Shown: positions 41,527 to 64,000, numbered from the stretch's first letter. The stretch: DNA of 64,000 nucleotides from Candidatus Poribacteria bacterium (GCA_965205025.1 CBDBFU010000012.1:213015-277014), one strand, 5' to 3'. A program made the numbers and translations. Notes: generated from the sequence alone by a model not told the origin.

Positions 41527-42283
41527 AAAATAAAATGAAGAAAACAAAAACTTCTAACAACAAATATACATACATCACAACAACCTAAAGTAAATTAAAA
41601 ATATATGTCAAAATAAACTGGAGAATAGGATTATCTATGTTAGAATTACAACTAAAAACATCAGAAATCTTAACAATTGAGAATCATTCACAAATCATAT
41701 ATATTCGTAGCCTAATAAAACAGGTACAGTGGATTATCAAAGTCAGTTTCACCACATATTTTTTTAGTTTTTCAAATTTTAAAATTTTACACCTATTAAT
41801 CAAATCCTTTGTTATCCCAATCCCTAACAGGGTTTACAGCGAATTAAAAAGTCATTTTTTTAAAAGCGACTCAAAAAACTTGAAAAACTTGAAAAACTCA
41901 AAAAACTTGAAAATAGACCTATTTCAAACAATGCACACTATCATATACATCAGTAAACTACAGTGTATCTCATTACTACGAAGCGTCTATACAGATAGAA
42001 TTTTCTTCGTAGTGGCAGGATTTCCCTGTCCATTGGTTCAAAATATTGCAAATGGTAAAACCAATGAATCCTCCAAATCTATGATTTATGAGATATGTTC
42101 TAATGCCTTGTCAAAATCAAAGGATAAGATATTTCACATTCAAACAATTCCAAATCAATGGATCAAAAGAAAAGTAAAAGACACAAAATTCATCCACAAT
42201 TTATATTTGGTGCAAATTCTTGTAACCTTAAAAAAGTGGCTCTAAACCCAGTGTACTACTGACGAGAAAGAGGTTTTACCAAT
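41527..42283 (+). repeat. ~760-bp repeated element, copy 1; contains a 9-bp iteron-like tandem array (aaaaacttg)x4 and a copy of the 'TTCGTAG..' motif; carries a low-complexity ORF (41637..42245)
   Basis: It shares these blocks with 63221..64000: 'aaaataaaatgaagaaaaca..cttctaacaac', 'ttttaaaattttacacc.att.atcaaatcctttgttatcccaatccc.aacagggtttacagc', the (aaaaacttg)n array, and 'caaattcttgtaaccttaaaaaagtg.ctctaaacccagtgta.tactgacg.gaaa.aggttttaccaa'. Confidence 0.8.
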
Positions 42284-42437
42284 GTCACACCATGTGACAA
42301 AAAGTGTAACTTTTATCAACATATTGGTAATATATAATTAACTATTCGTGAACAACTAAAACAGTAAATTACACAAGAATTACCCTTGAATAACTAAAAA
42401 CTAAAAACTATAAACTATAAACTGTTAACTGTTAACT

Positions 42438-42705
42438 AATACCATTTCTAATTGAAAATGTCTCTTTTTTGTACCACAAACTTTATGAAGATAAAGAAAA
42501 TATTTCGGTAATTCTAATTTTCCAAAACCCGGTAGGTGCGGTTTCCTAACCACGGGGAATGCTAAATAGCATTCATACCGTTGATTTGGATCTTTTTCCA
42601 AAATTACCGAATTTAAATATTAATCTTCATTCAGTTTGTGACCTGAAAAATGGCTACCATAATAACCGCCTAATGAGACAATAATTTATAGTAATAGTAT
42701 AATAA
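42438..42705. mobile_element. Composite MITE-like element: outer element with an inner hairpin element inserted
   Basis: Outer TIRs are 'taataccatttct...' and '...tagtaatagtataat'. There is an internal 'gtaccacaaactt'/'cagtttgtgac' junction. The inserted inner element is bounded by 'ttcggtaatt'/'aattaccgaatt' and carries the 'ggtaggtgcggtttcctaacc' core. Confidence 0.6.
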
Positions 42706-42999
42706 CCATAAGTTCTGTCATATTCAGGAAAAAACTTTAAATATCCTTATGTGCTTTTAACCTTGACTTAAACATTCTACATAGGATATAATTGACACAA
42801 CGTATATATTTGTGACTTAGGTATAGAAGGTTTAATCATATTAAGTATTACCACGTAATGTAAAAGGCAACATCGTTAATCTAAGAAGAGAAAGTTCAAC
42901 CGTATAAACAATTTACAAGATTAATCTTATATTATCTGATTATCACTGAATGCTACTTATAATAGCGATATAACAGGTAACCCCACTTAGGAGGACACA

Positions 43000-44313: not shown

Positions 44314-44534
44314 GCAGAATGGGTATCACTATTTTGCATTAATGTAGTGCTGGGGTTTACAATTGTTGACACCAGCACTACACACTGCTAACTGAGGTTG
44401 AGGCTTGATAGTTCTCTGGAATTCTGATGATGGTTAGCCTGAATTAGCAGATCATTATATTCCGGCTGTTATACCTTCCTACATATTAATCTTTTCCTCC
44501 ATATCAAACCTTCCTCATTGCATGGATTTATACC

Positions 44535-45578: not shown

Positions 45579-45671
45579 CATAACCCAAGTTGCTACAAAT
45601 GCATTTTGATCGTTTCAACACAGTTTTCAGCACACTTTACTTACCCCAGATGAAGTTAAAAAAATAAAATA

Positions 45672-45756
45672 GGTAATTTGGACCCAGAGCTGGTAGGTGC
45701 GGTTTCCTAACCGTACCGGATTCTACAAGAAACTGAAAATTACCCGAATAAATTCT
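45672..45756. repeat. Solo copy of the inner hairpin element
   Basis: 'ggtaatttgg...ctggtaggtgcggtttcctaaccgtaccgg...aaaattacccgaat'. Confidence 0.5.
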
Positions 45757-49086: not shown

Positions 49087-52000
49087 ATGTCAGGATACTA
49101 TCGATTCCCTACCATTTCAAAGGATACTATTGTTTTTGTGTGTGAAGACGATTTATGGACAGTTTCTGTAACAGGCGGTGTTGCACGGAGACTTACATCA
49201 AATTTAGGGGCAACTGGATCTCCCCAATTATCACCAAATGGAGAAATCCTTGCTTTTGCTGGACGTGAAGAAGGTCCAACTGAAGTGTATGTAATGCCTG
49301 CTCTTGGCGGTGAAGCAAAGAGATTAACATACCAAGGAAGTCAAGCAAGTATTGTCGGTTGGAGTTCTGATGGGGAGAATATCCTGTATTCAAGCGGGGC
49401 AAATTCTGCCTTTGGTGCTTGGATATGGAGTCTATCTCCGGAAGGTGGAGAACCACAACGACTACCTTACGGACCTGCTAATCATGTGTCCTATGGGAGT
49501 AATGGTGGTGTAATACTGGGTCGATTAACACGTGAACCGGCAAGATGGAAACGTTATCGCGGAGGAACTGCAGGACAACTATGGATAGATGTAGATGGAG
49601 ACGGAGAATTTCAACCATTCAAGCCAGTTGAGAGTAATTTCACAACACCGATGTGGATTGGGGATCGCATATACTTCATTTCCGATCACCAAGGTGTTGG
49701 AAATATCTATTCATGCGACACCTCCGGTGAAGATTTGCAACGGCATACTCATCAAGAAACATACTACTGTAGATCAGCACAAACTGATGGTACAAGAATT
49801 GTCTACCATGCAGGTGGGGACCTATGGATACACGAAATAGAAGAAAATAATAATTATCAAGTCGATGTTGATTTTCGAAGTCCACGCATACAAAGACAAC
49901 GCAAATTTGTCAATCCTACCAAATATCTTCAAGAATATTCACCATCTGCTGATGGGAAATTAATATCATTAACTGCTCGGGGCAAGTTATTCACAATGGG
50001 AAATTGGGATGGAGCTGTTCTACAACATGGGGATAGGAATGGCACACGCTACCGTAAAACAGAATGGCTAAATGATGGCAAACGCATTGTAACTCTTTCA
50101 GATGCTGGTGGCGAAGAAGCACTTGAAATTCATACATGCAATGGTAGTGAAGAGATACGCCGCTTAGATAACCTTGATATTGGACATGTTCGTCATTTGG
50201 CAGTTTGTCCTAAAGGTGATGACCTGAAAGATCAACTCTTAATTGTCAATCATAGGTTAGAACTTCTCCTCATAGAATTGGATGAACCAACGCTTCGAGT
50301 GCTTGATAAAAGCTTACACAGACGGATTTCAGGTGCAACTTGGTCACCAGATGGTAAATGGATAGCATATAGTTTTCCTGCAACAGAGACTACCTCATCC
50401 ATTAAGGTATGCAATGTTGAAACGGGGGATATATCATTCATTACACAACCAGAATTCAGCGATTATGCCCCGGCATGGGATCCAGATGGTAAATTCCTTT
50501 ATTTTTTATCACAGCGCGAATTTGATCCGGTGGGGGATTCACTACACTTTGATCTCGGTTTCCCTGTTTCCACACGTCCCCTCTTGGTAACACTGCAGAA
50601 GGATACACCAAATCCATTTATCCCCACTGCTCCTTCATCCGATGAAGAAAAGGATAAGGAGAAAGAAGAAAACGAGGATAAGGATAAGGACGAGAATAAT
50701 AATACAGATGAGACTAATGGAAAAGATGAGGATTCTAAAGAGAAAGAAGAAAAGAAGAAGAGAAAACCCATTGTCATAGATTTAGACGGTATTCAACAAC
50801 GGGTTGTTGCGTTTCCATATACACACGCAAATTATGGGCAAATTGCTGGGATTGAAGGCAAGGCTATTTTTACATCCTTTCCTGTTCAACATGCGGTTAA
50901 TTCTCCTGGTGAAGAAGACGGTTCTGGTGGTAAAGGGAAATTGCATGCTTACGATTTTAAAGAACAGAAAAAGGAAGTATTAGTTGGGGATATCGGTAAT
51001 TTTCAACTAACAAGAGATTACAAATCCTTGGTATACCGAACAGGAGATCGAATACGGGTCATTAAAGCCGGTAGAAAAGCGGAAGATGACCGAAAAGGGG
51101 AAAAGAAAGGCAGTAATCCGAGACACAACGGTTGGATCAATATAAGCCGTATCAGACCTTCTGTAATTCCATCTGCTGAGTGGGCACAAATGTACAGGGA
51201 AGCGTGGAGACTGCAACGCGATTATTTCTGGACTGAAGATTTGTCCGACGTTGATTGGGAAGATGTTTACAAACGCTATCTACCTCAACTTGAAAAAGTT
51301 GCTACTCGGGCAGAATTCTCTGATCTTATGTGGGAAATGCAGGGAGAACTCGGAACATCTCATGCCTATGAATCAGGTGGAGACTACCGGAGTTCACCAA
51401 ACTACGCACAAGGATTTCTTGGGGCGGATTACAGTTACGATTCTGAAAATGAGGGGTATCGTATAACCCATATTGTTCAGGGTGATACATGGAATGAACG
51501 TAGAGATTCTCCACTAAGAGCACCAGGAATTAACATCCAAGAAGGTGATGTTCTCCTATCTATCGGTGGACAAAAACTAAGTGAAAATGTCTCTCCGGGT
51601 GAGTTATTGGTTAATCTTGCTGGACAAGAGGTACAGACAACGTTCAAGAATGCTTCGGATGGTGAAAAACGGGTTGTCACCATGAAAATCCTCGGTAGTG
51701 AATCTGAATTACGATACCGTGAATGGGTGTCACAGAATAGAAAATATGTACACGAAAAAACTGATGGAAAGATCGGGTATGTTCACATTCCAGATATGGG
51801 AAGACGTGGTTATGCAGAATTCCATCGAGGATACTTATGTGAAGTCAGTTATCCCGGACTACTCGTGGATGTTCGATATAATGGTGGTGGAAACGTCTCC
51901 CAGCTGATATTGGAGAAATTGTCTCGTCGACGTATTGCGTATGTACAACCACGATGGGGTACACCAAATTCATATCCGGCTTCATCGGTTTTGGGACCTA

Positions 52001-52392: not shown

Positions 52393-52463
52393 TAGTTTCC
52401 AGTTAGATCTACTTCGTAAGGTATATAACTCAATTATTATCTCAAGGTTTAACCAGAGAACAG

Positions 52464-55400
52464 ATGCGAAAACTTTTTGCTCCACGATGTAGTGTTCTGA
52501 TTTTCTTTTGTTTCTACATTGCCACTGCACATGCCCAAGATAGGGTTCCCACTCATCCCGTTGATGGCACTTTCATCAAAGAGTGGTTGGTGCTGGGTCC
52601 CTTCTTTCCAGAGGATTTGGAGACCGATTTCCTCGCGTCAGTTAACGGCGAGGTTCTTGTTAATCCCAAACCCGGCGATACAGTGACCACCGCTGATGGA
52701 AAGATGTTGACTTGGACGGTATACCGTAGCAAAGGAAACCTTTTCAATCTGCTTCATGCTGTTGGAAACCATCGAGAGGCGGTCTGCTATACTTTCTGCC
52801 TATTGGAAAGCGATCGAGGTGGTGATGGAGAGTTTCTTGTCGGCAGTGATGATGGCGTTGTGGTTTTTCTCAACGGTCAGAGGGTACACACACAGCCAAT
52901 TAGGAGACCTATGGTCGTAGATGAAGATAGGGTCGCTGTTTCATTGCGCCCAGGCAAAAACCGCTGTCTGATGAAGGTCTCAAACGGGTACCAGAATTGG
53001 GCATTAACAGCGCGTGTTTTTCCATCTACTCGTGCAGTGATAGCAGGCGTCATTTCCAATGAAACAGGGAAGACCTTATCCAATGCCATCGTGAACCTGT
53101 GGCAAGGCAGGACCCTGATTGCAAAAACAGAGACCGACACCAGAGGGAATTATCAGTTTTCGGTCTATCCAGCAAGTGGACACTATGATATTCAAGCCAC
53201 CCACGGGGACAGAGGCACTTGGAAGATAGATGTACAACTTTCTACTGGTGTGCGGGTAAACATGAACTTGACTTTACAGAAAGCTATCAGTATCTCTGGG
53301 CACCTGCTAACGCTTGATAATACCCCACATGTTGGTGTCCTTGTGGAAGCATTATCTCTTGGCGAGAGTGGGCCCCGCCAAAGGAGGGTAACGACCTTTT
53401 CAGATAGAGTAGGAAGATATAAATTCATCAACCTGGAACCTGGATCGTATCAATTACGTTGCCACACCTCGGGCGCGTATAGCAGTTTTCAAAAAATAAT
53501 TGTCTCCGTTAGTTCCGAAAAAACTGAGAATATTGGTTTCAGTTTTCCTCCTTTCAAACATGGGACATGGAAAAACTACACTTATCTGGATGGATTGAAA
53601 GATAACTTTATTGAGTCGATTTACCAAGACCGAGACGGTTTTCTTTGGTTTGGGACGCTCAGTAGTGGTGTCTCTCGGTACGATGGCGAAAGGTTCGCCA
53701 ACTTCACCACGGATGATGGTCTTGCATCCGACTCTATCCGATGGATCCATGAAGACAATGCGGGACACCTCTGGTTTAGCACTTGGGGAGTTGGCGTTTC
53801 TCGGTATGATGGCGAAGAGTTTATTAACTTCACCACGGATGAGGGACTCGCATCCAACTTTGTCCGGGCGATTCATCAGGACCGGGAGGGTTACATCTGG
53901 TTCGGGACATACGACGGCGTTTCTCGGTACGATGGTGAAAAGTTCGTCAACTTCACCACAGATGAAGGACTCGTATCCAACTTTGTCCATGCGATCCATG
54001 AAGACAAAGCGGGACACCTCTGGTTTGGCACTTGGGAGGTTGGCGTTTCTCGGTATGATGGAGAAGAGTTTATCAGTTTCACCACGGATGAGGGACTCGT
54101 ATCTAACTCTGTAGCGACGATTCATCAGGACCGGGAGGGTTACATCTGGTTCGGGACAAACGACGGCGTTTCTCGGTACGATGGTGAAAAGTTTGTAAAC
54201 TTCACCACAGATGAGGGCCTCGCATCCAACTTTGTCCAAGCGATTCATCAGGACCGGGAGGGTTACATCTGGTTCGGGACAAGCGGTGGTGCTTCTCGGT
54301 ATGATGGCGAAAAGTTTGTAAACTTCACAATCGGTAAGGGGCCCGCATTTAACGTTGTGACGGCGATCCATCAAGACCGTGAGGGTTACATCTGGTTTGG
54401 AACAGAGGGCAATGGGCTTAGTCAATACGATAGCAGCGGGGTAATCAACTACACGACTTCTGATGGGCTCGTAGACAATCTTGTTTACACAATTTATCAA
54501 GACCATGAAGGGTACATCTGGTTTGGAACCAGGGGCGGAATTAGTCGATATGATGGCGAAAAGTTTATCAATTTTACAACCGATGCTGGACTCGTACACG
54601 ATTTTGTAAATTCGATCTATCAAGACCGTGAGGGGTACATCTGGTTCGGGACACAAGACGGAGTCTCCCAATACGATGGCGAAAAGTTCGTCAACTTCAC
54701 AATTAATGACGGACTCCCAAGCAATTCCGTATGGGCGATCTATCAAGACCATGAGGGTTACATCTGGTTCGGGACAAATGGTAGTGGGGTCTCTCAATAT
54801 GATGGTGAAAATTTTATTAACTTCAATACCGAAGACGGATTGGCACAAAATTATGTGATCTCAATTTATCAAGACCGTGAGGGTTACATCTGGTTCGGGA
54901 CAAACAACGGCGTTTCTCGGTACGATGGCGTAGAGTTCGTCAACTTTACCACGGATGCGGGGCTTGCATCCAACTTTGTCTATGCGATCCATGAAGACAA
55001 AGCGGGACACCTCTGGTTTGGAACCACAGGCGGCGAGGGGGTCTCCCGATATGACGGTGTGAATTTTGTCAACTTCACAAACACTGATGGACTCGCGCAA
55101 AATGATGCAACCTCGATTTACAAAGACCGAGACGGTTTTCTCTGGTTTGGGACGCTCAGCGGTGGTGTCTCTCAATATGACGGGACCGCCTGGACATCTT
55201 TAGATACGCGAGATGGACTCATAAGTGATCAGATTTCAAAAATTTATCAAGACTCAGATGGAAGGTTCTGGTTTGCAACGCTTGATGGGGTGTCCCAATA
55301 CAACCCGAATCGCGTTCCACCGCGTGTGCGGATCGTTTCAGTTCAGAGCCACAAGACATCTGCACAAACTGAATCTCTTAAGACAATTAAGGACATTATG

Positions 55401-56501
55401 ACCGATACTCGTGTAACTATCAAGTATAGTAGTATTGACTTCAAAACCCTAAAAGAAAAACGACAGTATCGAGTTCGCATCAAAGAGATTGACGCTGATT
55501 GGCGTAAACCAACACTATCGGACACCCTTAATATCAGCTTTGATAAACCGGGAACTTATACTTTCGAGGTCGTTGCAATTGACCGTGACCTAAACTACTC
55601 TAACCCGGCAAGCTTGACGTTGACTGTTGTGTTACCGTGGTATCAAAATAAGTGGATTCTCTATCCTTTAGGTGGAGCGATTGTTGTGTTAATGTTACTT
55701 TGTGGTACCTTTGTGTATCGTTACTACCAGCAGCATCAACAAGTTTTAGCCTATCAGCGGGAAGCGGTTTCTGAACTCGCTGATGCACAAGAGATGCAGA
55801 TGGGATTAATACCGCAAACCCCCCCTGAGGTCCCAGGATTTGAGATTGCAGGAGTCTGTATCTCTGCCCGTACCGTCAGTGGGGATTTTTTTGACTATGT
55901 TCCGCTCAGCAACGGAACGCTTGCGGTTGTGCTGGCAGATGTCGCCGGTAAAGGTATGAAGGGGGCAATGAATGCTATTTTATCTTCTGGTGCACTTTAT
56001 TCTGTGGCGCAGTTGGAAATGTCTTCATCTCAAATGTTGTGGGCATTGAACCAGAATCTTTATTCTCGATTTCAACGATATACTAATTGTGCTATGGCGA
56101 TACTGACAATTGACCCAACGGATAAGACGTTTAAATATGCTAACGCCGGAATTCCTTATCCTATGATCAAACGTGGTGAAGGTGATGTTGAAGAAATATC
56201 AATAGATGGACTCCCATTGGGCGCGTTTAAATCATCTGAATATGAAGAAACACCATCCGTTGAACTGAAGTCTGGAAATTTAATAATCCTTTTCAGTGAT
56301 GGCATTACCGAAGCATCTCAAAGAGACAATTCTGACCAACTTTACATGGAAACCGACCGCTTGACATACCTTATCAAAGAACTGGATAAAACAATGAACG
56401 CAGAAGCGGTGATAGATGCGATTATTAACGATGTTCGTGATTTTTCTGGTGACACTCAACAGAACGACGACATGACTATTGTAGTTATCAAAGCATTGTA
56501 A
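52464..56501 (+). CDS. Membrane-anchored sensor: periplasmic CarboxypepD_reg-like domains, about 18 Reg_prop (two-component regulator propeller) repeats, a Y_Y_Y-like Ig domain, one TM, and a cytoplasmic PP2C/SpoIIE-type Ser/Thr phosphatase
   Basis: Signal peptide. About 18 x 'GYIWFGTxxGVSRYDGEKFVNFTTDEGLxSN'. TM 'ILYPLGGAIVVLMLLCGTFVY'. SpoIIE-like 'SGDFFDYVPL...LADVAGKGMKGAM...FSDGITEA...NDDMTIVVIKAL'. No histidine-kinase motifs. Confidence 0.8.
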   Translation: MRKLFAPRCSVLIFFCFYIATAHAQDRVPTHPVDGTFIKEWLVLGPFFPEDLETDFLASVNGEVLVNPKPGDTVTTADGKMLTWTVYRSKGNLFNLLHAVGNHREAVCYTFCLLESDRGGDGEFLVGSDDGVVVFLNGQRVHTQPIRRPMVVDEDRVAVSLRPGKNRCLMKVSNGYQNWALTARVFPSTRAVIAGVISNETGKTLSNAIVNLWQGRTLIAKTETDTRGNYQFSVYPASGHYDIQATHGDRGTWKIDVQLSTGVRVNMNLTLQKAISISGHLLTLDNTPHVGVLVEALSLGESGPRQRRVTTFSDRVGRYKFINLEPGSYQLRCHTSGAYSSFQKIIVSVSSEKTENIGFSFPPFKHGTWKNYTYLDGLKDNFIESIYQDRDGFLWFGTLSSGVSRYDGERFANFTTDDGLASDSIRWIHEDNAGHLWFSTWGVGVSRYDGEEFINFTTDEGLASNFVRAIHQDREGYIWFGTYDGVSRYDGEKFVNFTTDEGLVSNFVHAIHEDKAGHLWFGTWEVGVSRYDGEEFISFTTDEGLVSNSVATIHQDREGYIWFGTNDGVSRYDGEKFVNFTTDEGLASNFVQAIHQDREGYIWFGTSGGASRYDGEKFVNFTIGKGPAFNVVTAIHQDREGYIWFGTEGNGLSQYDSSGVINYTTSDGLVDNLVYTIYQDHEGYIWFGTRGGISRYDGEKFINFTTDAGLVHDFVNSIYQDREGYIWFGTQDGVSQYDGEKFVNFTINDGLPSNSVWAIYQDHEGYIWFGTNGSGVSQYDGENFINFNTEDGLAQNYVISIYQDREGYIWFGTNNGVSRYDGVEFVNFTTDAGLASNFVYAIHEDKAGHLWFGTTGGEGVSRYDGVNFVNFTNTDGLAQNDATSIYKDRDGFLWFGTLSGGVSQYDGTAWTSLDTRDGLISDQISKIYQDSDGRFWFATLDGVSQYNPNRVPPRVRIVSVQSHKTSAQTESLKTIKDIMTDTRVTIKYSSIDFKTLKEKRQYRVRIKEIDADWRKPTLSDTLNISFDKPGTYTFEVVAIDRDLNYSNPASLTLTVVLPWYQNKWILYPLGGAIVVLMLLCGTFVYRYYQQHQQVLAYQREAVSELADAQEMQMGLIPQTPPEVPGFEIAGVCISARTVSGDFFDYVPLSNGTLAVVLADVAGKGMKGAMNAILSSGALYSVAQLEMSSSQMLWALNQNLYSRFQRYTNCAMAILTIDPTDKTFKYANAGIPYPMIKRGEGDVEEISIDGLPLGAFKSSEYEETPSVELKSGNLIILFSDGITEASQRDNSDQLYMETDRLTYLIKELDKTMNAEAVIDAIINDVRDFSGDTQQNDDMTIVVIKAL
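53560..55200 (+). repeat. about 87-bp periodic, near-identical nucleotide repeats encoding the Reg_prop array
   Basis: 'gagggttacatctggttcgggaca' recurs about 8 times. These repeats generate the spurious 464-aa antisense ORF 53454..54848. Confidence 0.85.
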
Positions 56502-56559
56502 AAACCGTTACGATATTTGGTTTGTTCTGTTGTGTCTTCCCTCTATTGTAGTTATCAAT

Positions 56560-56615
56560 TACAGTAAATTTCAAAATTACTTATACATTCGTAGGGGCTG
56601 GGTTCACCTTGTCCT
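56560..56615. repeat. Core of the same repeat, copy D
   Basis: 'cattcgtaggggctgggttcaccttgtcc'. Confidence 0.4.
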
Positions 56616-56992
56616 TCATTGCCAGAAATATCTTTGGCAATGTTGCCATCATTTTTATCTAATAGGTAAACCGCCTCAATGGTATCCTAAGGTAGAAGTC
56701 TGTTGGTTTTAAATGAGGATACAAGTTTTACCCTGGTAAGCCAATAAAAATCAGTCTGATTCTCATTGACAACAGGGTTATTTAGTTTTCAATTTTTTGG
56801 GCGTTTTTTATCACAGTTGTTAATAATCTATAAAATAGCAGATATAGTGTGACTTTTCACACCATATCTGCTATGATTCACCTTAAAACAATCACTTTTT
56901 AAGGTGAATATTGACAAAAAGAAAATCTTGCCACTTGGTAGATATGTTAGTAGAAGTTTTGACCCACGCAACAAGAAAGGAAACGACATCCG

Positions 56993-57420
56993 TTGAAGTC
57001 AATACTCGGTCTCCTCGTTGTTGGACTTATTGTGGGCATAAATAAATATCTGGACTGGGCGGGGGAGTATCACAAGTATTCCAAATATCGCTATATCTAC
57101 AAAGACCTAAACACAAGAGAAGAAAAACATAAAATCCACTATGGGATTACAAGTCTGTCCCCTGAGAAAGCGTCAGCAGAACGCTTACTATCTTTACGGC
57201 GTGGACATTGGTCAATAGAGAACAAGTCGCACTGGATGCGGGACACGCCCCTTGGAGAAGATTCATCACCTGTCTGATCTGGTGCTATTCCACAAGTCAT
57301 GGCAGCATTGCGAAATACAGCATTATCCGTATTCCGGTTCATAGGAGCTACACGGATTGCTGATATGATGAAATATTATGCTTCAAATCCTAAAATCGCA
57401 GTAAACATCATAAAATGAGA
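56993..57420 (+). pseudogene. Degenerate C-terminal fragment of a DDE transposase (IS4/ISAs1-type 'HWSIEN' family) with an in-frame TGA
   Basis: '...ITSLSPEKASAERLLSLRRGHWSIENKSHWMRDTPLGEDSSPV*SGAIPQVMAALRNTALSVFRFIGATRIADMMKYYASNPKIAVNIIK*'. The TGA at 57275-57277 is in frame. The N-terminal about 250 aa of a normal transposase, including the DDE residues, is absent. Other genes in this window use TGA as a stop. Confidence 0.6.
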
Positions 57421-57546
57421 AGTCTTAAAACTAAATAACCATGAAAGGGCAGGCTATTATGTTTTCAAATATTATAAGAAATGTTATGATATCAATCAGT
57501 AATTAGAAGCGATTCTGAAAATACTCATATTATAGGAATAGAATAT

Positions 57547-59184
57547 ATGAATGAACAACTTTCCCATCCTTTTATAAATGATGCAGCATTTAGAGACGCT
57601 GAAAAACGTGTTTTGGGAAATATTCTCACACAATTTGAAGAACTATCCAATGATGAGCTTGAGGAATTAGTTAAAACGAATGTGGAATTTCTTGGAAATG
57701 ATCATATCCGGAAGATTATTGGAAGTACTTATAACAAAGAAATAGAATCCGTTGAATATACTATTGGAAGTGCTAATTTTAATGAGAAGATCCTATCGAA
57801 TGCCTGTGCAAAGATGGAAGGGAAATGGGTAATTTCGGTAGATGAATCAATGGTGGATACAGAGAGTTTTGTCGGTGAAGTCGTATACAGACATAGTTGT
57901 GCATTCGGATATAAAATCCCAAAAACCTTGGATGAAGAAATTGTACCCAAGGAAGAGAGGATACTGGCAGTTTCATCAATTCTACGACTCCAAGATGAGG
58001 AAGATTTTGATAGAAAAATGGCACTCTTAACCTACATGCTCAACCTGTATGTTGCTTATTATACAGCAAAGATTCTTCAGTCATTGAATCAACCTATATA
58101 CGCTGTGATTTTACATGGACCTCTAATTCGGTTAATTGCCCCGTTTTTGAATCTTCTTTTTCGGAAGGAGGATATCAAAAAAGTCGTTACTGCTGATACT
58201 GAACCGCTTATAGATACTACTGATGAGATAAAAACGATTGCTTGTGGCGACTTGCTAGATTTAATAGTGGATGATCCAATTTATCAAGGTATCTCAGAAC
58301 AATTTATTGGATTATTTCCCAGAGAAAGATTGCAAAATGTGAAAGAAAGATTAGATAAAGGTGAAATAATCGGGATTGGATTTTATTTTTCTTTGCTCAG
58401 AAAATTGTCAGACTTAGCTAAAGAGATGAATTTTCACCTGATCAGTTGTGTAGATAATGCCACTTCAACAGAGTATTCAAAATTATATGTCCAGTATCAA
58501 ATTGAGCGTTTCGGGCAGGATTCTATTAACCAGGAAATCCTTCGCAAATTATTTGCAGCTTACGGTGTAAACTTTAGCAAGCAGTTCATAAAGGAAAGGT
58601 TTCGAGACTTAATTGACAAATCAGGTTGGGATGATGAAATGATTCATGCTTTTTCACTGAAATTTGATAATGAAAAGTCAATAGAATCCGAATTTACTCA
58701 ACCTGTGCCGATCCGGAGATATTTTACAGGTGGTAAAAATCAGGATATATTCGGGTTTAGGTTTGGTTCTGCATTTATTTCTGAAGATCCGTCACGGGAA
58801 ACTTTAATCAATCAGATTATAGATACTCTGTACCCGTTTAAAGACTACAGAATGTTAATGAGTTTTGTCCGTACAAGTGCTCTTAAGGCTCCAATTCGGG
58901 TGGAATTCCTTGAACAAGGAGGGGAAGATAATTGGAAAGAGGTATTGGCCTCAATCTATATTTCAAGTCTTCCGTACGGCAGTTATGGGTTACCAATATT
59001 CTTGTATTATGCAGATAAAATGGTGCGGATGCCGAAAGAAATTATATCAGTTGTTACTGAATCATACCTTGTTGAACAAGCAACGAGAGCATTGCATCAA
59101 ATCGGTTTGAGTGATGTAAAGTTAAAGGATGTCTTTTTAGGGGTCACGCAAAAGTTTAGAAGAGATTTCTATGAGCGAGGGTGA
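57547..59184 (+). CDS. Hypothetical 545-aa protein, first gene of the HerA/TGT cassette; tentatively NurA-like (RNase-H-like nuclease)
   Basis: ATG start. The TGA stop overlaps the upstream GTG of the next gene. There is no unambiguous motif. 'KWVISVDESMVD' (about aa 95), 'AVILHGPLIRL' (about aa 185) and 'HLISCVDNATS' (about aa 300) resemble the spacing of the acidic motifs of NurA-type nucleases, but this is weak. Confidence 0.7.
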   Translation: MNEQLSHPFINDAAFRDAEKRVLGNILTQFEELSNDELEELVKTNVEFLGNDHIRKIIGSTYNKEIESVEYTIGSANFNEKILSNACAKMEGKWVISVDESMVDTESFVGEVVYRHSCAFGYKIPKTLDEEIVPKEERILAVSSILRLQDEEDFDRKMALLTYMLNLYVAYYTAKILQSLNQPIYAVILHGPLIRLIAPFLNLLFRKEDIKKVVTADTEPLIDTTDEIKTIACGDLLDLIVDDPIYQGISEQFIGLFPRERLQNVKERLDKGEIIGIGFYFSLLRKLSDLAKEMNFHLISCVDNATSTEYSKLYVQYQIERFGQDSINQEILRKLFAAYGVNFSKQFIKERFRDLIDKSGWDDEMIHAFSLKFDNEKSIESEFTQPVPIRRYFTGGKNQDIFGFRFGSAFISEDPSRETLINQIIDTLYPFKDYRMLMSFVRTSALKAPIRVEFLEQGGEDNWKEVLASIYISSLPYGSYGLPIFLYYADKMVRMPKEIISVVTESYLVEQATRALHQIGLSDVKLKDVFLGVTQKFRRDFYERG

Positions 59185-59198
59185 AAGGAGAAAAGAGA

Positions 59199-61199
59199 AT
59201 GGTTTTGGGAATAATCTTTGGTGAAACATCAACGCAGGAATTTTCCTTTCTATTTGGAGATGTAGATGGCGAACGTCAAAATCAATTGAAATTTTCCTAT
59301 GTTGAAGTTAATATACCTGAAAGTAATGATAAGGTTGTTGCTAAAGTTATTGATGTAAATACAGAGAATCCACTATTGGCAAAAGATACTGCAAAGTTTT
59401 ATTCGGAGCACGAAACAGTTGGAATTTCGGTCCCTGATATAATATCGCACCGATTCACTTTGTATCAAGCCAAATGTGAAGTAATGGGGATCTATAATAG
59501 TATAGAAAACAAAATAGAACCCCTAACGCAGGCGATAAAACCCGGTGAGAAAGTAGAACTATTATCCAATGATGTGCTCAATCAACTCTTCTCTGCAAGC
59601 GAGGAATGGCATTTTCCCCTTGGATATGTTGAGATACCCGGCAGACAAACACATGCTCAAGTATCTTTGAAAGCAGACTCAATCATTACGATGCACGCTT
59701 GTGTTTTTGGCATGACAGGAATGGGTAAAACCACAACATCTGCTGTGCTCTTAGAAGAATTAATGTTCCGTGGTGCAAAGATCATCGTATTTGATCCACA
59801 CGCTGATTATATACATATTAATCGGATACGTCAAAAACTCAATGATGATTTTTCAGAAAGAATTCATAAGCATCAAGGCCTGATAGATAAAATATCAGAA
59901 TACAAGGAATTATTAATAAGTAAATGGTCAAGTAACTGGTCTCAGAGAGAAGTCAAACCTTGGGATGATTTTGATCCATCATTCAAAGATCTTATAAATG
60001 AGAAAGTCAATGAAGAATTAACATCTGAGAATATTTTTTATCGCTTACTTAGTTTATGTTCAATTAAAAATCGTAATCTAATGGTTGACTCTACGCGCAT
60101 CTCTGAACAATTGGATGACATTATTGACGGAATCACGCATCTTGATTTACATAATGGAATCCCTCAGGAACTCATTCACCGGAAGTTGACTATTAAGTTT
60201 AATGCTTTTCCTAGCCTCCAAGTATATACAGATAAAAGTCCTTACTTCACAATGAGATTGATTGAAGCAATAGCGGGTGAAGGTTTTTCAGAGGCACAAG
60301 AAGGTTTTGTAATTGATTGGCTGTCGCACCCACCAAAGCCGAATTTATCTGATGAACAACTTCTTTACTACTTAAAATCACGTATTAAGGATATGCCTAA
60401 ATCAAAAGACGGCAAACCCAATCCATCCCAAGTTCCTCTAAACCGAATTGTTGATAAGGCAAGCCGGACTGTCGTGTCTTTGATAAAACGAAAGTGCACG
60501 TCTCTAAATATCAGTAATTTTGTTGATGCTTTTTGTGCAAAGGGTGAGAGTTTATCTAATGTGGCGACAGCGGTATTTGATCTTTCAGATTTGGAAAATG
60601 ATCACGCAAGGCGAGCTTTGATTTATGCTGTTATGGAATTTGCTTTTGATAGGTATAAATCAAAAAGTTTTATTGTAGAAAAAGATAATCATCATGTAGG
60701 CAAAGATGCACATCCTGTACTTTTTGCTCTTGAGGAAGCAAGGACATTAATCCCCCGGCAAGATGAAAGTAGCACTACCGGAGAAATGCATCCCGCGACC
60801 AGAGCAGCTCGACTTGCAGCAAGACAAATTGCAACTGAAGGACGGAAGATGGGACTTGGTATGCTTGTTATCTCGCAAAAACCCGCTTCAGTAGATCCAA
60901 TAACTGTTTCTCAAGCAAATACGTTAATTTTGCACCGAGTTATTAACCCGGATGATCAGACGTACATCCGTAATGTTGGCGAATCTTTAGCTAGTGAAGA
61001 TTTGGAAACTTTGAAAACTGTAAAAGAAGGTGTTGCTATTGTTACGGGTGATGCCTTAAAAACCAGAATGTCTACATTAGTTAAAGTCAGAAATCGTTAT
61101 AGTGAACCTGGCACTGAAAAACCTCGCCCAATAGAAAGATTTTGGAACGATCCTAATAGAGAGACTTCAAGTGAAGTTCCTGAGTCTACAACGGAATAA
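59199..61199 (+). CDS. HerA/FtsK-type (DUF87) hexameric ATPase
   Basis: The ORF-track GTG start at 59181 overlaps the upstream stop. ATG at 59199 is preceded by SD 'aaaggag'. HAS-barrel-like N-terminus 'MVLGIIFGETSTQEFSFLF'. Walker A 'FGMTGMGKTTTSAV'. 'IIVFDPHADY' (HerA DPHGEY-type). Walker-B region 'VLFALEEARTLIP'. Hallmark 'GRKMGLGMLVISQKPASVDPITVSQANTLILHRVINPDD'. Confidence 0.85.
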   Translation: MVLGIIFGETSTQEFSFLFGDVDGERQNQLKFSYVEVNIPESNDKVVAKVIDVNTENPLLAKDTAKFYSEHETVGISVPDIISHRFTLYQAKCEVMGIYNSIENKIEPLTQAIKPGEKVELLSNDVLNQLFSASEEWHFPLGYVEIPGRQTHAQVSLKADSIITMHACVFGMTGMGKTTTSAVLLEELMFRGAKIIVFDPHADYIHINRIRQKLNDDFSERIHKHQGLIDKISEYKELLISKWSSNWSQREVKPWDDFDPSFKDLINEKVNEELTSENIFYRLLSLCSIKNRNLMVDSTRISEQLDDIIDGITHLDLHNGIPQELIHRKLTIKFNAFPSLQVYTDKSPYFTMRLIEAIAGEGFSEAQEGFVIDWLSHPPKPNLSDEQLLYYLKSRIKDMPKSKDGKPNPSQVPLNRIVDKASRTVVSLIKRKCTSLNISNFVDAFCAKGESLSNVATAVFDLSDLENDHARRALIYAVMEFAFDRYKSKSFIVEKDNHHVGKDAHPVLFALEEARTLIPRQDESSTTGEMHPATRAARLAARQIATEGRKMGLGMLVISQKPASVDPITVSQANTLILHRVINPDDQTYIRNVGESLASEDLETLKTVKEGVAIVTGDALKTRMSTLVKVRNRYSEPGTEKPRPIERFWNDPNRETSSEVPESTTE

Positions 61200-61217
61200 A
61201 TCAGACTTAAGTAAAAA

Positions 61218-62987
61218 ATGTGTTGGATGGGAATAGTAATAATGTCAGAATGTTTACAATCTAATCAGCAGCAACACACGGGAGGTAATTTGTTGATTTT
61301 AGGATGTTCTGACCGAAAACGTGAGTGTTACGGAAGCGCCCCAGCACTTGAAGTTTATGACGGTCCAAACTTCCAAACCCTCCGAAAGTACTTCAGGGAA
61401 AATGGATGGCCTCCCGGTCTTATAATAAAAATAATCTCTGCTAAATATAAAATCATTGACGCTACAACAATTATTGAACCCTATGATGAGCGACTGGATA
61501 AAGAAACAGCGAAAAAAATGAGGAATCGAGTAAGGTATCATTTAAAAAAAATTGAGCACCCAAAATCTGTTTTCGTCAATATGGGTAAGAACTATTTACC
61601 TGCAATTTCTTGCATTAAGTCTTTATATAATCCTGACAGAATTGAGTATGCAAAAGGTGGATATGTACAAAAACGCAAGGAGCTTAAACAGTGGCTTGAA
61701 GGTTTATCAAATAACACTGCTACAATCAATTCTCAAGAACAATCAGATAAGAAGTCTTATCTTTACTTTTTTCCAGATTGGAATGATTATGTTTATGAAT
61801 CTTTCGATCCAGAGAAAATAGATGAAAATCGGAAACCTGAGAAAGGAGTAAAAAAGTACGCTCACGAGATATTTAAGGATGATCCGCCTTATGACGGTTT
61901 ACTCCTCAGTCTTGCCCAACTGCAAACTAAAAATGGACAACTTACCCGACTTGATGAAAAAGGCTCATCGAATTTTCGAACTGAGATGCGGGTTCCTAAT
62001 AGGCTTTTATTATTCGGAGATTGCGGTGCTTTTTCATACATTGAGGATGAAAAGCCTCCCATTTCCTGTGAGGATGCGGCTTTTCGGTATAGTCAATTCG
62101 GTTTTGACCTTGGGACATCTGTCGATCATATACCGATTTCATCGATATCCAAAAGAAAGCAACGATACCGGATGGACTTAACAGCTGAAAATGCCAAAAA
62201 GTTTTTAGAAATTTGTCAGAACAACGAATACGAATTCGATCCAATTGGGAGCATACAAGGTATCATACCTAAACATTATGCTAAATTTGCCAGTGAATAT
62301 ATTAAATGGGGATATGAGCATGTTGCATTAGGTGGATTAGTACGTAGACAAGATTCAGATATTGTAGAAATAGTTGCAGCTGTTCGGGAGGCATTACAGA
62401 AAAGCACATGGAGTAAAAATAAAAATATTTGGGTACATCTTTTTGGCATTCTGAGACCAAATCTTCAACCCATTTTTCGGGAACTTGGTGTTTCCAGTTT
62501 TGACAGCGCATCTTACTTGAGAAAAGCGTGGTCAAGTCCAAATAGGAGCTATTTAACTGCATCTGGAAAGTGGTACGGAAGCATCCGAGTACCTTTTAGT
62601 ACATCAAAACCAATGCGCGAAGTTGCGAAATCTGATGCTAAGTTTTCTAAGAATGGTGCTATGCAGAAATTGGAAAAAGAATGTCTTACGAACCTTAAAC
62701 TTTTTGATGATAGGAAAATATCAGAGGAGAAAGTTCTTGAGAACATTAATGAATATAGTGCACTGCTTCAACGAAAAAAAACATATAACCATTTTTCCGA
62801 AAGACATAAGGAGTTATTAGATGAACGCCCTTGGAAAAAATGTAAATGTAAGATTTGCCAAGATTTGGGTATACATGTTGTAGTTTTCAGGGGAGCAAAC
62901 CGTAACAGACGAAGAGGTTTCCACAATACCTGGGTATTTTATCACAAAATTCTACATAAAGGTCGCAAAATATCATCTAAAGAGTAA
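61218..62987 (+). CDS. tRNA-guanine-transglycosylase (TGT/DpdA)-fold protein with an extra ~190-aa N-terminal domain
   Basis: C-terminal zinc site 'CKCKICQDLGIHVVVFRGANRNRRRGFHNTWVFYH' (C-x-C-x2-C...H, as in the TGT family). 'HLFGILRPNLQPIFRELGVSSFDSASY' resembles TGT 'MGVGKP...GVDMFDCV'. 'LLLFGDCGAFSYIED' fits the substrate-pocket Asp region. The N-terminal 'LLILGCSDRKRECYGSAPALEVYDGPNFQTLRKY...' is not part of the canonical TGT barrel. ATG 61218, with an alternative at 61242. Confidence 0.7.
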   Translation: MCWMGIVIMSECLQSNQQQHTGGNLLILGCSDRKRECYGSAPALEVYDGPNFQTLRKYFRENGWPPGLIIKIISAKYKIIDATTIIEPYDERLDKETAKKMRNRVRYHLKKIEHPKSVFVNMGKNYLPAISCIKSLYNPDRIEYAKGGYVQKRKELKQWLEGLSNNTATINSQEQSDKKSYLYFFPDWNDYVYESFDPEKIDENRKPEKGVKKYAHEIFKDDPPYDGLLLSLAQLQTKNGQLTRLDEKGSSNFRTEMRVPNRLLLFGDCGAFSYIEDEKPPISCEDAAFRYSQFGFDLGTSVDHIPISSISKRKQRYRMDLTAENAKKFLEICQNNEYEFDPIGSIQGIIPKHYAKFASEYIKWGYEHVALGGLVRRQDSDIVEIVAAVREALQKSTWSKNKNIWVHLFGILRPNLQPIFRELGVSSFDSASYLRKAWSSPNRSYLTASGKWYGSIRVPFSTSKPMREVAKSDAKFSKNGAMQKLEKECLTNLKLFDDRKISEEKVLENINEYSALLQRKKTYNHFSERHKELLDERPWKKCKCKICQDLGIHVVVFRGANRNRRRGFHNTWVFYHKILHKGRKISSKE

Positions 62988-63220
62988 CATAGATGATTCT
63001 CTCGGAGAACTATACAATCCTGTAAATCTTGGTAATCCTACAAATCTTGGTTCAGACAGTACAGGGTGTGTAATCTTTTTGTCACTTTTGAAAGCACTAA
63101 TAAATTCTCAATTCCATATACACCTATTTAGAGTTTGCCGATTACAAGGAATTCTTCACTACATTACTGCGCTTAGATATCCATCACTGACTTACCCAAA
63201 ATATAAACATTGAAGAAATC

Positions 63221-64000
63221 AAAATAAAATGAAGAAAACATTAACTTCTAACAACTAATATACATCTATTACATTAAAACAAAATGCATGAATATTATTT
63301 ATCATAATGAAAATAAATTTGAAATTATTGGTACACTATGGCAAAATTAATCTGGATTATACCCTGCACAATAGAAGTGTTTCATTAATTATAGGTTTTA
63401 TTATATGTGCTAAATTAACTATCTGGAGTAGAAGAAAATCCATGTTAGAATTACGAATAAAACATTCAGAATTGTCTCCTTATGAGAATCATCCTAAGAA
63501 CATACATACTCATAATCTAAAAAAGCTGGTACAGAGGATTATTGTACCGAATTACACCATATATTTTTTTAGTTTTTTTAGTTTTAAAATTTTACACCGA
63601 TTCATCAAATCCTTTGTTATCCCAATCCCCAACAGGGTTTACAGCATTTCAAAAAGTAATTTCTTAAAAAGCGATTTGAAAAACTTGAAAAACTTAAAGA
63701 ACTTGAAAAACTTAAAATTTGAGCAGCAACAAACAAAACAGACGATCATACACACAAGAAAACCACTAAACGTTTCGAAGGATATAATTACATTTCTTCT
63801 GTGGGTAAGGATTCCGATCCCGATCTTAACTACTTTACATATCCCTAAGATATTTAACATTCAAACAATTTCAAAACAATGGATTAGAAGAATAAAAAAA
63901 GACACAGCATACACTATTTTTGCAAATTCTTGTAACCTTAAAAAAGTGTCTCTAAACCCAGTGTAGTACTGACGGGAAAAAGGTTTTACCAAAGTTACAC
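63221..64000 (+). repeat. about 760-bp repeated element, copy 2 (runs to the window edge); direct orientation relative to copy 1; contains (aaaaacttg)-type iteron array and a low-complexity ORF (63307..63966)
   Basis: See 41527..42283. The array here reads 'gaaaaacttgaaaaacttaaagaacttgaaaaacttaaaa'. Confidence 0.8.

What the first reader, a model, noticed from the sequence alone, without database searches (positions are those of the whole stretch)
41527..64000. Two diverged direct copies of a ~760-bp element bracket a 21-kb segment
Copy 1 (41527-42283) and copy 2 (63221 to the window end) are in the same orientation. They share four conserved modules: an A-rich 5' block, a about 75-bp core, a tandem 9-bp 'aaaaacttg' iteron-like array, and a 3' block ending '...ggttttaccaa'. 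The DNA between the modules has diverged.

Both copies contain a about 200-aa low-complexity ORF, which I think is probably spurious. Copy 1 additionally embeds a copy of the 'TTCGTAG...' repeat.

The bracketed interval holds DUF1501, a WD40 protein, the di-heme/PPC protein, a tricorn-like protease, the Reg_prop-PP2C sensor, the IS remnant and the HerA/TGT cassette. Iteron arrays plus AT-rich DNA are reminiscent of replication origins or integrative-element ends. Alternatively, these are simply two members of a larger dispersed repeat family.
Basis: seen in the sequence. Interest (0 to 1): 0.55.

Follow-up and report, generated by a model that had tools for sequence, protein, structure and literature searches.

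The report
Old transposon-like repeat, not a boundary
The two repeats are decayed copies of a roughly 1.3-kb transposon-like element scattered through Poribacteria genomes; they do not mark the ends of a mobile 21-kb segment, though each carries an odd reading frame that is kept free of stop codons without otherwise looking like a protein gene.

Summary
Copy 1 (41527-42388 core) and copy 2 (63221 to the window end) are direct repeats, about 78% identical, with the four modules described.

The boundary reading fails.
- The same element occurs in at least 13 other loci from Poribacteria metagenome-assembled genomes (MAGs), each in a different gene context.
- There are about four copies on the source contig.
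- In a sister genome (L004), copy 2 sits at the same site next to the same sensor gene.

The repeat is the interior of a longer element bounded by terminal inverted repeats (TIRs).
- L008 holds a 1,268-bp copy with about 30-bp TIRs (GGATGTGTAAAGTTT...) and a perfect 8-bp target-site duplication.
- L009 has a 9-bp duplication.
- Copy 2's left TIR is at 63064. Copy 1's right-end remnant is at 42700-42746.
- GGnnnTG ends with 8-9-bp duplications match the published IS1 signature, and most IS6/IS26 members share the GGnnnTG ends. No transposase is encoded.
- I therefore file it as a non-autonomous MITE/MIC-like element, old and inactive: 70-83% identity within genomes, 92% between orthologous copies.

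It carries a conserved promoter, a ribosome-binding site and a roughly 200-codon frame. That frame is depleted of stops but shows no coding composition, no codon-position bias and no predicted fold. The "iteron" array is one arm of a conserved inverted repeat. What the carried unit does is unknown.

The parts
41487..42746 (+). Copy 1 of the element, whole detectable extent. The left end is eroded, and tandem 8-mers and a MITE are nested near the right end.
   Evidence: blastn family boundaries; right-end alignment A7; left-end alignment A6, where no clear TIR survives.
41527..41615 (+). 5' A-rich conserved block, which lies upstream of the promoter in intact copies. In copy 1 it is followed directly by a roughly 160-nt deletion that removed the -10 box and the leader.
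   Evidence: Alignment of the 5' parts of 11 copies; blastn coordinates.
41627..42245 (+). Ribosome-binding site AGGA (41627-41630) and a 202-codon open frame (ATG 41637, stop 42243-42245). Relative to the family frame, the last ~12 codons (from about 42208) are read in a shifted frame.
   Evidence: Stop depletion. No coding signature. No fold. No family.
41759..41788 (+). T-tract block, the left arm of the internal inverted repeat. It contains two inverted copies of the 9-mer.
   Evidence: the repeat finder I1/I2; 14-15 pairs kept in all 12 copies.
41789..41875 (+). Core enclosed by the inverted repeat. 41762-41821 is the best-conserved stretch of the family, at 90-93% pairwise identity in all three codon positions.
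41876..41913 (+). Tandem 9-bp array (AAAAACTTG units), the right arm of the inverted repeat.
41959..42044 (+). REP-like hairpin repeat ('TTCGTAG' family) inserted in frame. It is shared by a subfamily of copies.
   Evidence: 79.5% identical to window 22875-22962; present in L001, L006, L008 and L010.
42125..42316 (+). 3' conserved block. It contains the most conserved run (42211-42283), the hairpin GTCACA-cca-TGTGAC (42284-42298), and GTGTAAC followed by TTTT (42304-42314).
   Evidence: Alignment A4; RNAalifold finds one covarying pair, C-G in 4 copies and U-A in 3; identity profile.
42393..42665 (+). Secondary insertions inside copy 1: tandem 8-mers (42393-42439) and a MITE with ATACCATTTCT ends (42440 to about 42665), related to window 408-658.
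   Evidence: (D17, I1, I5). A MITE with the same ends abuts the element in L010 at 8759-8876.
42700..42746 (+). Degenerate right terminal inverted repeat of copy 1.
   Evidence: Aligns with the right ends of L008, L006, L001, L010 and L012.
63064..63220 (+). Left terminal inverted repeat of copy 2 (GGGTGTGTAATCTTTTTGTCAC...) plus the subterminal region.
   Evidence: The same end and the same spacing occur in L004 (5623) and L013 (2400).
63221..64000 (+). Copy 2 interior, cut by the end of the window. Contents: A-rich block; altered promoter region (TGGTACACT at 63330-63337); ATG 63442 with the frame running to 63966; T-tract arm 63564-63593; 9-bp array 63676-63717; 3' block from 63846.
56678..63056 (+). 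Not part of the element. A 6.4-kb insertion relative to the sister genome, ending a few bases (within about 10 bp) before copy 2's left end. It carries an IS remnant and NurA-like, HerA and DpdA-like genes.
   Evidence: Synteny break in L004; Pfam and PADLOC.

Best explanation
**What the repeats are.** Both are old, immobile copies of a non-autonomous DNA transposon family (MITE- or mobile-insertion-cassette-like, about 1.27 kb when intact). The family is dispersed at roughly 4-10 copies per genome in Candidatus Poribacteria.

**Anatomy of an intact copy, left to right:**
1. A terminal inverted repeat of about 30 bp that starts GG(G/A)TGTGTAAAGTTT.
2. An A-rich block.
3. A sigma-70-type promoter, TTGTCA-17-TA(C/T)AAT, with a TG extension.
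4. A leader of about 150 nt.
5. An AGGA ribosome-binding site and ATG.
6. An open frame of about 200 codons. It runs through a conserved inverted repeat (T-tract block against the 9-bp array) that encloses a nearly invariant core of about 60 nt.
7. A conserved 3' block with a small hairpin and a T run.
8. The right terminal inverted repeat.

**How it moved.** Insertion made 8- or 9-bp target duplications, presumably through a transposase supplied in trans. An IS1-like (or IS6-like) enzyme is suggested by the GGnnnTG ends.

**Shown:** the repeat itself, its dispersal, the terminal inverted repeats, the duplications, the orthologous position of copy 2, the conserved promoter and ribosome-binding site, and the depletion of stop codons.

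**Inferred:**
- Mobilisation in trans.
- Translation of the carried frame. My best guess is that ribosome passage, or a low-complexity basic product, matters, and that the amino-acid sequence itself does not.
- Constraint at the nucleotide level on the core and the 3' block, which are probably protein- or RNA-recognition sites.

**The 21-kb interval.** The two window copies bracket it only because two independent old insertions happen to flank it.
For: **Dispersal**
- 32 ORF-level relatives were found. Three are on a contig of the same length as the source (457,917 bp).
- One sister metagenome-assembled genome holds 4 copies.
- Loci L001-L013 have no constant neighbouring gene.

**Ends**
- L008 7646-8913: 26 of 31 terminal bases are complementary, and GTATTGTT is duplicated on both flanks.
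- L009 7630-9357: TCTTCAAGA is duplicated on both flanks.
- L011 is the same insertion in another sample.
- Left ends are present in window copy 2, L004, L013, L008, L009 and L011. Right ends are present in L001, L006, L008, L010 and L012, and as a remnant in copy 1.
- A 576-bp MITE with the same termini lies at window 5213-5788.

**Signature.** IS1 family: 740-1180 bp, direct repeats of 8-9 bp, ends GGnnnTG (PMC10425158, Table 8). Most IS6/IS26 members share GGnnnTG, with 8-bp duplications (PMC6807381).

**No transposase**
- No Pfam, PHROG or PADLOC match.
- A profile search of 1.84 billion representatives gives only 34 short relatives.
- No acidic residue is invariant.

**Age**
- Within-genome copies are 70-83% identical over the first ~100 codons of the frame. 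The orthologous pair, copy 2 and L004, is 92.2% identical across the element (90% on that same stretch), against 92.5% for the flanking genes.
- Synonymous divergence (dS) of the neighbouring sensor gene is 0.173.

**Promoter and ribosome-binding site.** Conserved in 7 and 11 copies respectively.

**Open frame**
- Stops in the first 99 codons of 14 copies number 4, 134 and 84 in frames 0, 1 and 2.
- Substitution-event test: 5 stop-creating events observed against 17 expected (P<0.0002), or against 12 expected when only variable columns are used (P=0.013). Frames 1 and 2 match expectation.
Against: - Neither window copy shows a target duplication. Copy 1's left end is eroded and copy 2's right end lies beyond the window.
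- Only two of the complete copies tested show clean duplications. L005 and L006 do not, probably because a second MITE is nested at their left ends.
- No matching autonomous insertion sequence was found in the roughly 210 kb examined, so mobilisation in trans is not shown.
- No near-identical copies exist, so activity is historical only.
- An element that merely decays would not keep a frame free of stops or keep 90-93% identity in its core. Some function of the carried unit is implied but not identified.
Confidence: 0.75

Rival explanations
1. The two copies are functional ends of a 21-kb mobile unit: an integrative element, or a composite transposon like Tn9, which is flanked by direct IS1 copies.
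For: The copies are in direct orientation around the interval. The element type has transposon ends. The sister contig carrying L004 is 15,428 bp long, a length that would place its far end inside copy 1. This suggests the same arrangement exists there (an inference).
Against: - The copies are only about 78% identical.
- The interval genes are ordinary Poribacteria genes with normal composition. There is no integrase, and the window has no tRNA.
- The arrangement is conserved between species at the same divergence as the flanking genes, which argues against recent mobility.
- The element occurs singly at all other loci.
Confidence: 0.04
2. The element is an autonomous, very small insertion sequence, and the roughly 200-residue product is an unrecognised transposase or an essential transposition protein.
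For: - The architecture resembles IS1 and IS6: about 1.27 kb, one frame, its own promoter, terminal repeats, 8-9-bp duplications.
- The frame is kept open.
- A MITE derivative shares the ends.
Against: - No similarity to any transposase.
- No invariant acidic residue, which a DDE catalytic site requires.
- AlphaFold2 mean confidence (pLDDT) is 38.
- Composition is indistinguishable from the shifted frames. G at codon position 1 is 0.10-0.13, against 0.27-0.40 in real genes.
- Substitutions are spread evenly over the three codon positions, and the dN/dS ratio equals that of shifted-frame controls.
- The frame tolerates insertion of a hairpin repeat and a compensated frameshift in L010.
Confidence: 0.06
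3. The conserved unit is a host-retained gene or regulatory cassette. It could be a small basic protein, a translated leader or portable promoter for the downstream gene, or an mRNA whose conserved 3' end yields a small RNA. Its transposon ends are then only the vehicle that spread it long ago.
For: - Copy 2 has been kept at the same site across species, at 7.8% divergence, against roughly 12-16% (counted by eye from the alignment) for flanking intergenic DNA and dS 0.173.
- The core and the 3' block are 81-93% identical among paralogues that are otherwise 61-72% identical.
- The promoter and ribosome-binding site are conserved, and stops are depleted.
- In L012 the next gene starts 11 nt after the right end.
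- The orthologous pair gives dN/dS 0.42 in frame, against 0.73 and 0.82 in shifted frames.
Against: - There is no constant neighbour. In L008 the downstream gene is convergent.
- Copy 1 has lost its promoter -10 box.
- Many copies are truncated or interrupted.
- Predicted RNA structure is weak: about -7 to -8 kcal/mol for the consensus and z about -2.
- No Rfam match even at E<=1.

This rival overlaps the best explanation and does not exclude it.
Confidence: 0.13
4. The repeat is a replication origin or iteron-type plasmid remnant, or an artefact of assembly.
For: AT-rich DNA with tandem 9-bp repeats.
Against: - There are several copies per chromosome, with no Rep or DnaA gene nearby.
- The array is one arm of an inverted repeat, and its 9-bp spacing is out of helical phase.
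- Independent assemblies from several samples carry the family.
- The longest exact run shared by the two window copies is 28 nt.
Confidence: 0.02

Closest known systems
Mobile insertion cassettes and large MITEs: non-autonomous elements with insertion-sequence ends and a passenger. MIC231 of Bacillus cereus is the example I recall; the qnrD and qnrS2 mobile insertion cassettes are named in PMC3913671 and PMC2600179.
   Same: - Terminal inverted repeats and target-site duplications.
- No transposase.
- An internal passenger with its own expression signals.
- Many dispersed and decaying copies.
- A shorter MITE shares the same ends (window 5213-5788).
   Different: - The passenger is not a recognisable gene. 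It is a 29%-GC frame that is stop-free but otherwise non-coding in character.
- No partner insertion sequence has been identified.
- No recent copies exist.
IS1 family insertion sequences
   Same: - Ends fit GGnnnTG (GGGTGTG, GGATGTG).
- Duplications of 8 and 9 bp.
- Small size, against 740-1180 bp for IS1 (PMC10425158, Table 8).
- Direct copies flanking genes recall Tn9 (from my own knowledge).
   Different: - No InsA/InsB or any DDE transposase is encoded.
- At 1,268 bp it is slightly above the family range.
- One right end reads GGGTGCG.
IS6/IS26 family
   Same: - GG ends, with GGnnnTG in most members, and 8-bp duplication (PMC6807381).
- One frame of about 200-250 codons in a small element.
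   Different: - A 9-bp duplication is also seen (L009).
- There is no DDE_Tnp_IS240-type transposase.
- There is no sign of cointegrate-type near-identical direct copies.
Correia/ERIC/RUP-type intergenic repeats that carry promoters and fold into hairpins (from my own knowledge)
   Same: - Intergenic and AT-rich.
- An internal inverted repeat and promoter-like signals.
- A location often just upstream of genes.
   Different: It is five to ten times longer and contains a long open frame with a ribosome-binding site.

Membership tests
Non-autonomous TIR transposon (MITE / mobile insertion cassette) | Terminal inverted repeats | tested here: met
   L008: 26 of 31 terminal bases complementary. Ends were found in 11 loci. 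Window copy 2 has its left end at 63064, and copy 1 has a right-end remnant at 42700-42746.
Non-autonomous TIR transposon (MITE / mobile insertion cassette) | Target-site duplication flanking the element | tested here: met
   Met in relatives: 8 bp (GTATTGTT) in L008 and 9 bp (TCTTCAAGA) in L009. Not recoverable for the two window copies, and absent in L005 and L006.
Non-autonomous TIR transposon (MITE / mobile insertion cassette) | No transposase encoded | tested here: met
   The only long frame has no Pfam, PHROG or PADLOC match, has no invariant acidic residue and gives no confident fold. All other frames are full of stops.
Non-autonomous TIR transposon (MITE / mobile insertion cassette) | Multiple dispersed copies in unrelated contexts | tested here: met
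Non-autonomous TIR transposon (MITE / mobile insertion cassette) | A partner insertion sequence with matching ends in the same genomes | not tested
   None was seen in the window or the 13 loci. The full assemblies could not be scanned.
IS1 family | Ends GGnnnTG and 8-9-bp direct repeats | tested here: met
   GGGTGTG and GGATGTG ends; 8- and 9-bp duplications. The criterion comes from PMC10425158 Table 8 and PMC6807381.
IS1 family | Encodes an InsA/InsAB' DDE transposase | tested here: not met
   No match to any Pfam family at E<=1. The profile search finds no larger relatives.
IS6/IS26 family | DDE transposase with an H-HTH domain; 8-bp duplication | tested here: not met
   No transposase. 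Duplications of both 8 and 9 bp are seen.
Integrative element / genomic island bounded by att repeats | An integrase or recombinase inside; short near-identical att repeats; often next to a tRNA | tested here: not met
   Interval genes: DUF1501, WD40, haem/PPC, tricorn, Reg_prop-SpoIIE, NurA/HerA/DpdA and an IS fragment. No tRNA in the window. The repeats are 78% identical over more than 760 bp. The interval is syntenic in a sister genome.
Iteron-type replication origin | Iterons next to a rep gene or DnaA boxes; one per replicon | tested here: not met
   Several copies per contig. No rep gene. The array is one arm of an inverted repeat.
Structured non-coding RNA (any Rfam family) | Covariance-model match, or covariation-supported structure | tested here: not met
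   No Rfam match at the gathering score or at E<=1. RNAalifold gives -6.8 and -8.1 kcal/mol, with a single covarying pair.
Conventional protein-coding gene | Codon-position bias in substitutions, coding composition, dN/dS below frame-shifted controls | tested here: not met
   - Differences by codon position: 1024, 1210 and 1226.
- dN/dS 0.65, against 0.74 and 0.62 in shifted frames.
- GC at codon positions 1/2/3 is 0.29/0.26/0.33, against about 0.5/0.4/0.3 in neighbouring genes.
- Only the absence of stops, and the start signals, look coding.

The most novel reading that the evidence does not exclude
The carried unit could be a new kind of transposon cargo. Under this reading it is a transcript that must be translated end to end although its amino-acid sequence is free to drift. 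Translation might protect or remodel the RNA, for example to deliver the conserved 3' block as a small RNA or to drive read-through into the next gene. Alternatively, it could encode an unrecognised low-complexity basic protein that acts on the element's own conserved core and inverted repeat.
Probability: 0.12. Interest if true: 0.6.

Novelty: new member of a known kind. Interest (0 to 1): 0.3.

Why it matters
- **Annotation.** It removes a false lead: the 21-kb interval is not a mobile island. It also names a repeat family that breaks Poribacteria assemblies and generates about 30 spurious-looking 'hypothetical proteins' in public databases.
- **Mobile-element biology.** It adds an IS1/IS6-style non-autonomous element in a candidate phylum where mobile elements are hardly described. 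Its passenger frame is kept open without any other coding signature, which is a small, testable oddity.
- **Genome plasticity.** A 6.4-kb NurA-HerA-DpdA cassette is inserted a few bases from the element's left end. This suggests these repeat-rich intergenic regions are places where accessory genes are gained or lost.

Tried and rejected
- **Rfam.** Gathering-score scan of the whole window, and E<=1 scans of copy 1 and of the L008 element: nothing.
- **RNA structure.** RNAalifold on the 3' block and on the core gave weak energies and one covarying pair. Single-sequence folds gave z about -2. I rejected a structured RNA.
- **Protein families.** Pfam, PHROGs and PADLOC gave only sub-threshold noise: DUF3091 at 22.7 bits against a cut-off of 25, and YoeB at E=0.08.
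- **Structure prediction.** AlphaFold2 with 15 sequences gave mean pLDDT 38, so no fold search was run.
- **Exhaustive profile search.** Only short relatives were found.
- **JGI metagenome scan.** No relatives.
- **Plasmid and phage blastn.** No match.
- **Exact look-ups.** Five exact look-ups found no record: four for NCBI-derived copies (P0005, P0010 and the copy-2 ORF on the source contig; P0003 on another) and one more. I could not read the sequence beyond the window end or the other source-contig copies.
- **Indel-length test for multiples of three across the whole frame.** Too noisy to use: 0.38, against 0.25 outside the frame. The first attempt timed out.
- **Sigma-54, ECF and CRP-site readings of the 3' block.** Considered by eye and dropped, because spacing or motifs did not fit.
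- **Promoter scan.** Promoter-like sites are not enriched over shuffles in this AT-rich DNA. The promoter claim therefore rests on conservation across copies.
- **Literature.** Searches found no description of this repeat in Poribacteria.

Full report
**1.

Reading both stretches and aligning them confirms two direct copies with 78% column identity and several indels. The four modules are all there: an A-rich 5' block, a core, a tandem 9-bp array, and a 3' block ending ...GGTTTTACCAA. Four probes of 25-35 nt, covering the 5' block, the core and the 3' block, each hit exactly these two places in the 64-kb window and never in 100 shuffles. The whole-window repeat search lists the pair as D5. The longest exact run the copies share is 28 nt, so a repeat-induced mis-join is unlikely.

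**2. It is a dispersed family, not a pair**

The 202-codon frame of copy 1 found 32 relatives among 5.8 billion predicted proteins, none with a Pfam domain. Three are on a contig of 457,917 bp, taken to be the source contig because the exact window ORF (P0001) is recorded on it. One is annotated only as a hypothetical protein of Candidatus Poribacteria. With copy 2, that makes at least four copies on that contig.

- A scan of one genome per species found five loci, four of them in a single metagenome-assembled genome (MAG).
- Exact-sequence look-ups gave eight more loci from four metagenome samples.
- The neighbours differ everywhere: dnaN and an ECF-sigma fusion, GroEL, restriction-modification genes, WD40 arrays, glycoside hydrolases, a tRNA.

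**3. The element is longer than described and has transposon ends**

blastn with copy 1 and with the L006 copy places the family's common boundaries at about 41487/41527 on the left and 42388 on the right. Several copies continue further right, to a shared motif ...ATTCATGCCAAAAACTTTACGCACCC. A repeat search inside L008 then paired that motif with its reverse complement 1.2 kb upstream.

- **L008.** It carries a 1,268-bp unit (7646-8913) whose ends match at 26 of 31 positions. The unit is flanked on both sides by GTATTGTT.
- **L009.** It carries a unit flanked by TCTTCAAGA on both sides. L011 is the same insertion in another sample.
- **Other loci.** It stands at the same distance in L004 and L013.
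- **Copy 1.** It keeps a degenerate right end at 42700-42746, beyond tandem 8-mers and a nested MITE. Its left end is eroded.
- **A shorter relative.** A 576-bp MITE with the same termini lies at window 5213-5788.

Ends of the form GGnnnTG with 8-9-bp duplications are the tabulated signature of the IS1 family (PMC10425158, Table 8). Most IS6/IS26 members share the GGnnnTG ends (PMC6807381).

**4. No transposase is encoded**

- The only long frame has no match in Pfam, PHROGs or PADLOC.
- A profile search of 1.84 billion cluster representatives returns 34 proteins, all 202 residues or shorter, and no larger or annotated relatives.
- No acidic residue is invariant.
- AlphaFold2 gives mean pLDDT 38.
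- The element has no match in plasmid or phage collections or in Rfam.

I therefore file it as a non-autonomous element of the MITE or mobile-insertion-cassette kind, with IS1/IS6-like ends. It fails membership of IS1 and of IS6 proper.

**5. The copies are old, and copy 2 is inherited vertically**

L004, from a sister MAG, matches window 51049-56678 at 92.5% nucleotide identity. It then jumps to window 63056-63837 at 92.2%. The tricorn-like protease gene, the Reg_prop-SpoIIE sensor gene and copy 2 therefore lie in the same order in both genomes.

- The sensor gene has dS 0.173 and dN 0.039.
- The element differs by 7.8%, and the flanking intergenic DNA by roughly 12-16%, counted by eye from the alignment.
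- Copies within one genome are only 70-83% identical over the first ~100 codons of the frame.
- Nothing suggests recent movement.

The L004 contig is 15,428 bp long. If it is collinear with the window, its far end falls at about window position 42,240, inside copy 1's most conserved block. That is where a short-read assembly would break, and it suggests the sister genome has copy 1 too. This is an inference, not a reading.

The interval genes are ordinary: DUF1501, WD40, haem/PPC, tricorn and the sensor. They have normal composition. There is no integrase, and the window has no tRNA.

**6. What the element carries**

Seven copies share TTGTCA-17-TA(C/T)AAT with a TG extension. All eleven copies that include the start have AGGA six bases before ATGTTAG. 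Copy 1 has lost the -10 box and about 160 nt of leader. Copy 2 and L004 have a rearranged version.

Evidence that the frame is kept open:

- One plus-strand frame is open for 200-224 codons in six copies, while the other five frames hold 4-39 stops each.
- In the first 99 codons of 14 copies there are 4 stops in frame 0, all in L005, against 134 and 84 in frames 1 and 2.
- Of 250 distinct substitution events, 5 would create a frame-0 stop on the consensus. The expectation is 17 (P<0.0002), or 12 if only variable columns are allowed (P=0.013). Frames 1 and 2 match expectation.
- L010 has a compensated frameshift. Six of nine copies keep the net frame from the ATG to the family stop codon.

Evidence that the frame is not a conventional coding sequence:

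- Differences fall evenly on the three codon positions: 1024, 1210 and 1226.
- dN/dS is 0.65 in frame, against 0.74 and 0.62 in shifted frames. Only a few close pairs are lower: 0.15, 0.19 and 0.42.
- GC at codon positions 1, 2 and 3 is 0.29, 0.26 and 0.33. G at position 1 is 0.10-0.13, the same as in the shifted frames. Neighbouring genes have GC1 of 0.46-0.59 and G1 of 0.27-0.40.
- The frame reads straight through an inserted REP-like hairpin repeat.

My reading is that the frame is translated, but that selection acts on its being open, or on a crude low-complexity basic product, and not on a folded protein. This is inference.

**7. Nucleotide-level conservation**

- The best-kept stretches are 41762-41821 (90-93% pairwise identity) and 42218-42300 (81-90%). 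Between them identity falls to 61-72%.
- The 'iteron' array is the right arm of an inverted repeat. The left arm is the T-tract block, and 14-15 pairs are kept in all 12 copies. Because both arms are invariant there is no covariation, and folding energies are unremarkable at z about -2.
- The 3' block has one small hairpin with a genuine compensatory change: GTCACA/TGTGAC in four copies and GTTACA/TGTAAC in three. It is followed by GTGTAAC and a T run.
- These blocks look like recognition sites or expression signals, not a structured RNA.
- An antisense promoter-like site, TTGATT-16-TAAAAT, lies in the core. It is untested.

**8. Verdict**

The finding is a real repeat, correctly described in outline, but it is not a boundary. 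It is a newly seen member of a known kind, a non-autonomous transposon with inverted-repeat ends, in a little-studied phylum. One unexplained feature remains: a frame that is kept open without looking coding. Interest is modest.

Noticed in passing
window 56678-63056: A 6.4-kb segment absent from the sister genome (L004). It carries a DDE_Tnp_1 transposase fragment (56993-57277), a NurA-like gene, a HerA ATPase and a DpdA-like (TGT) gene, which together look like a defence-type cassette. Its right junction lies a few bases (within about 10 bp) before the left terminal repeat of copy 2.
   Followed up: partly
window 5213-5788: A 576-bp MITE with the same GGGTGTGTAAAG... termini as the element and about 45-bp inverted ends. 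Related pieces sit next to or inside the element in L005, L006, L009 and L011.
   Followed up: partly
window 408-658 and 42440-42665; L010 8759-8876: A second MITE family with TTATACCATTTCT inverted ends. In two independent loci a MITE with these ends is inserted right after the element's tail, at ...TTCAATATA.
   Followed up: partly
window 510-548, 24037-24075, 42523-42561, 45684-45722; also 22875-22962 and 41959-42044: REP-like GC-rich hairpin repeats (GGTAGGTGCGGTTTCCTAACCG..., and the 'TTCGTAG' type) scattered in intergenic DNA. Different members are inserted at the same hot spot just after the 9-bp array in different copies of the element.
   Followed up: partly
L007 8320-8400, L005 about 6690-6760, L004 about 6500-6560, window about 45600-45650: Another repeat, ending ...AAGTTGCTAC(C/T)AACGGATTTTGATCG... 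/ ...AAACTTTCTTCACCC. It replaces or interrupts the 3' half of the element in L004, L005 and L007, and its termini resemble the GGGTG...AAAGTTT ends.
   Followed up: no
L004 about 5012 versus window 56072: The Reg_prop-SpoIIE sensor gene changes frame near its 3' end in the sister contig relative to the window. This is either a real frameshift or an assembly error.
   Followed up: no
L001 6820-6900: A tRNA gene with its own promoter-like TATAAT lies about 90 bp after the right end of the element in L001. It was seen in the sequence and not checked with ARAGORN.
   Followed up: no
window 42393-42439: Tandem 8-mers (CTAAAAAC x2, TATAAACT-like x2, GTTAACT x2) lie between the element's tail and the nested MITE in copy 1.
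   Followed up: no
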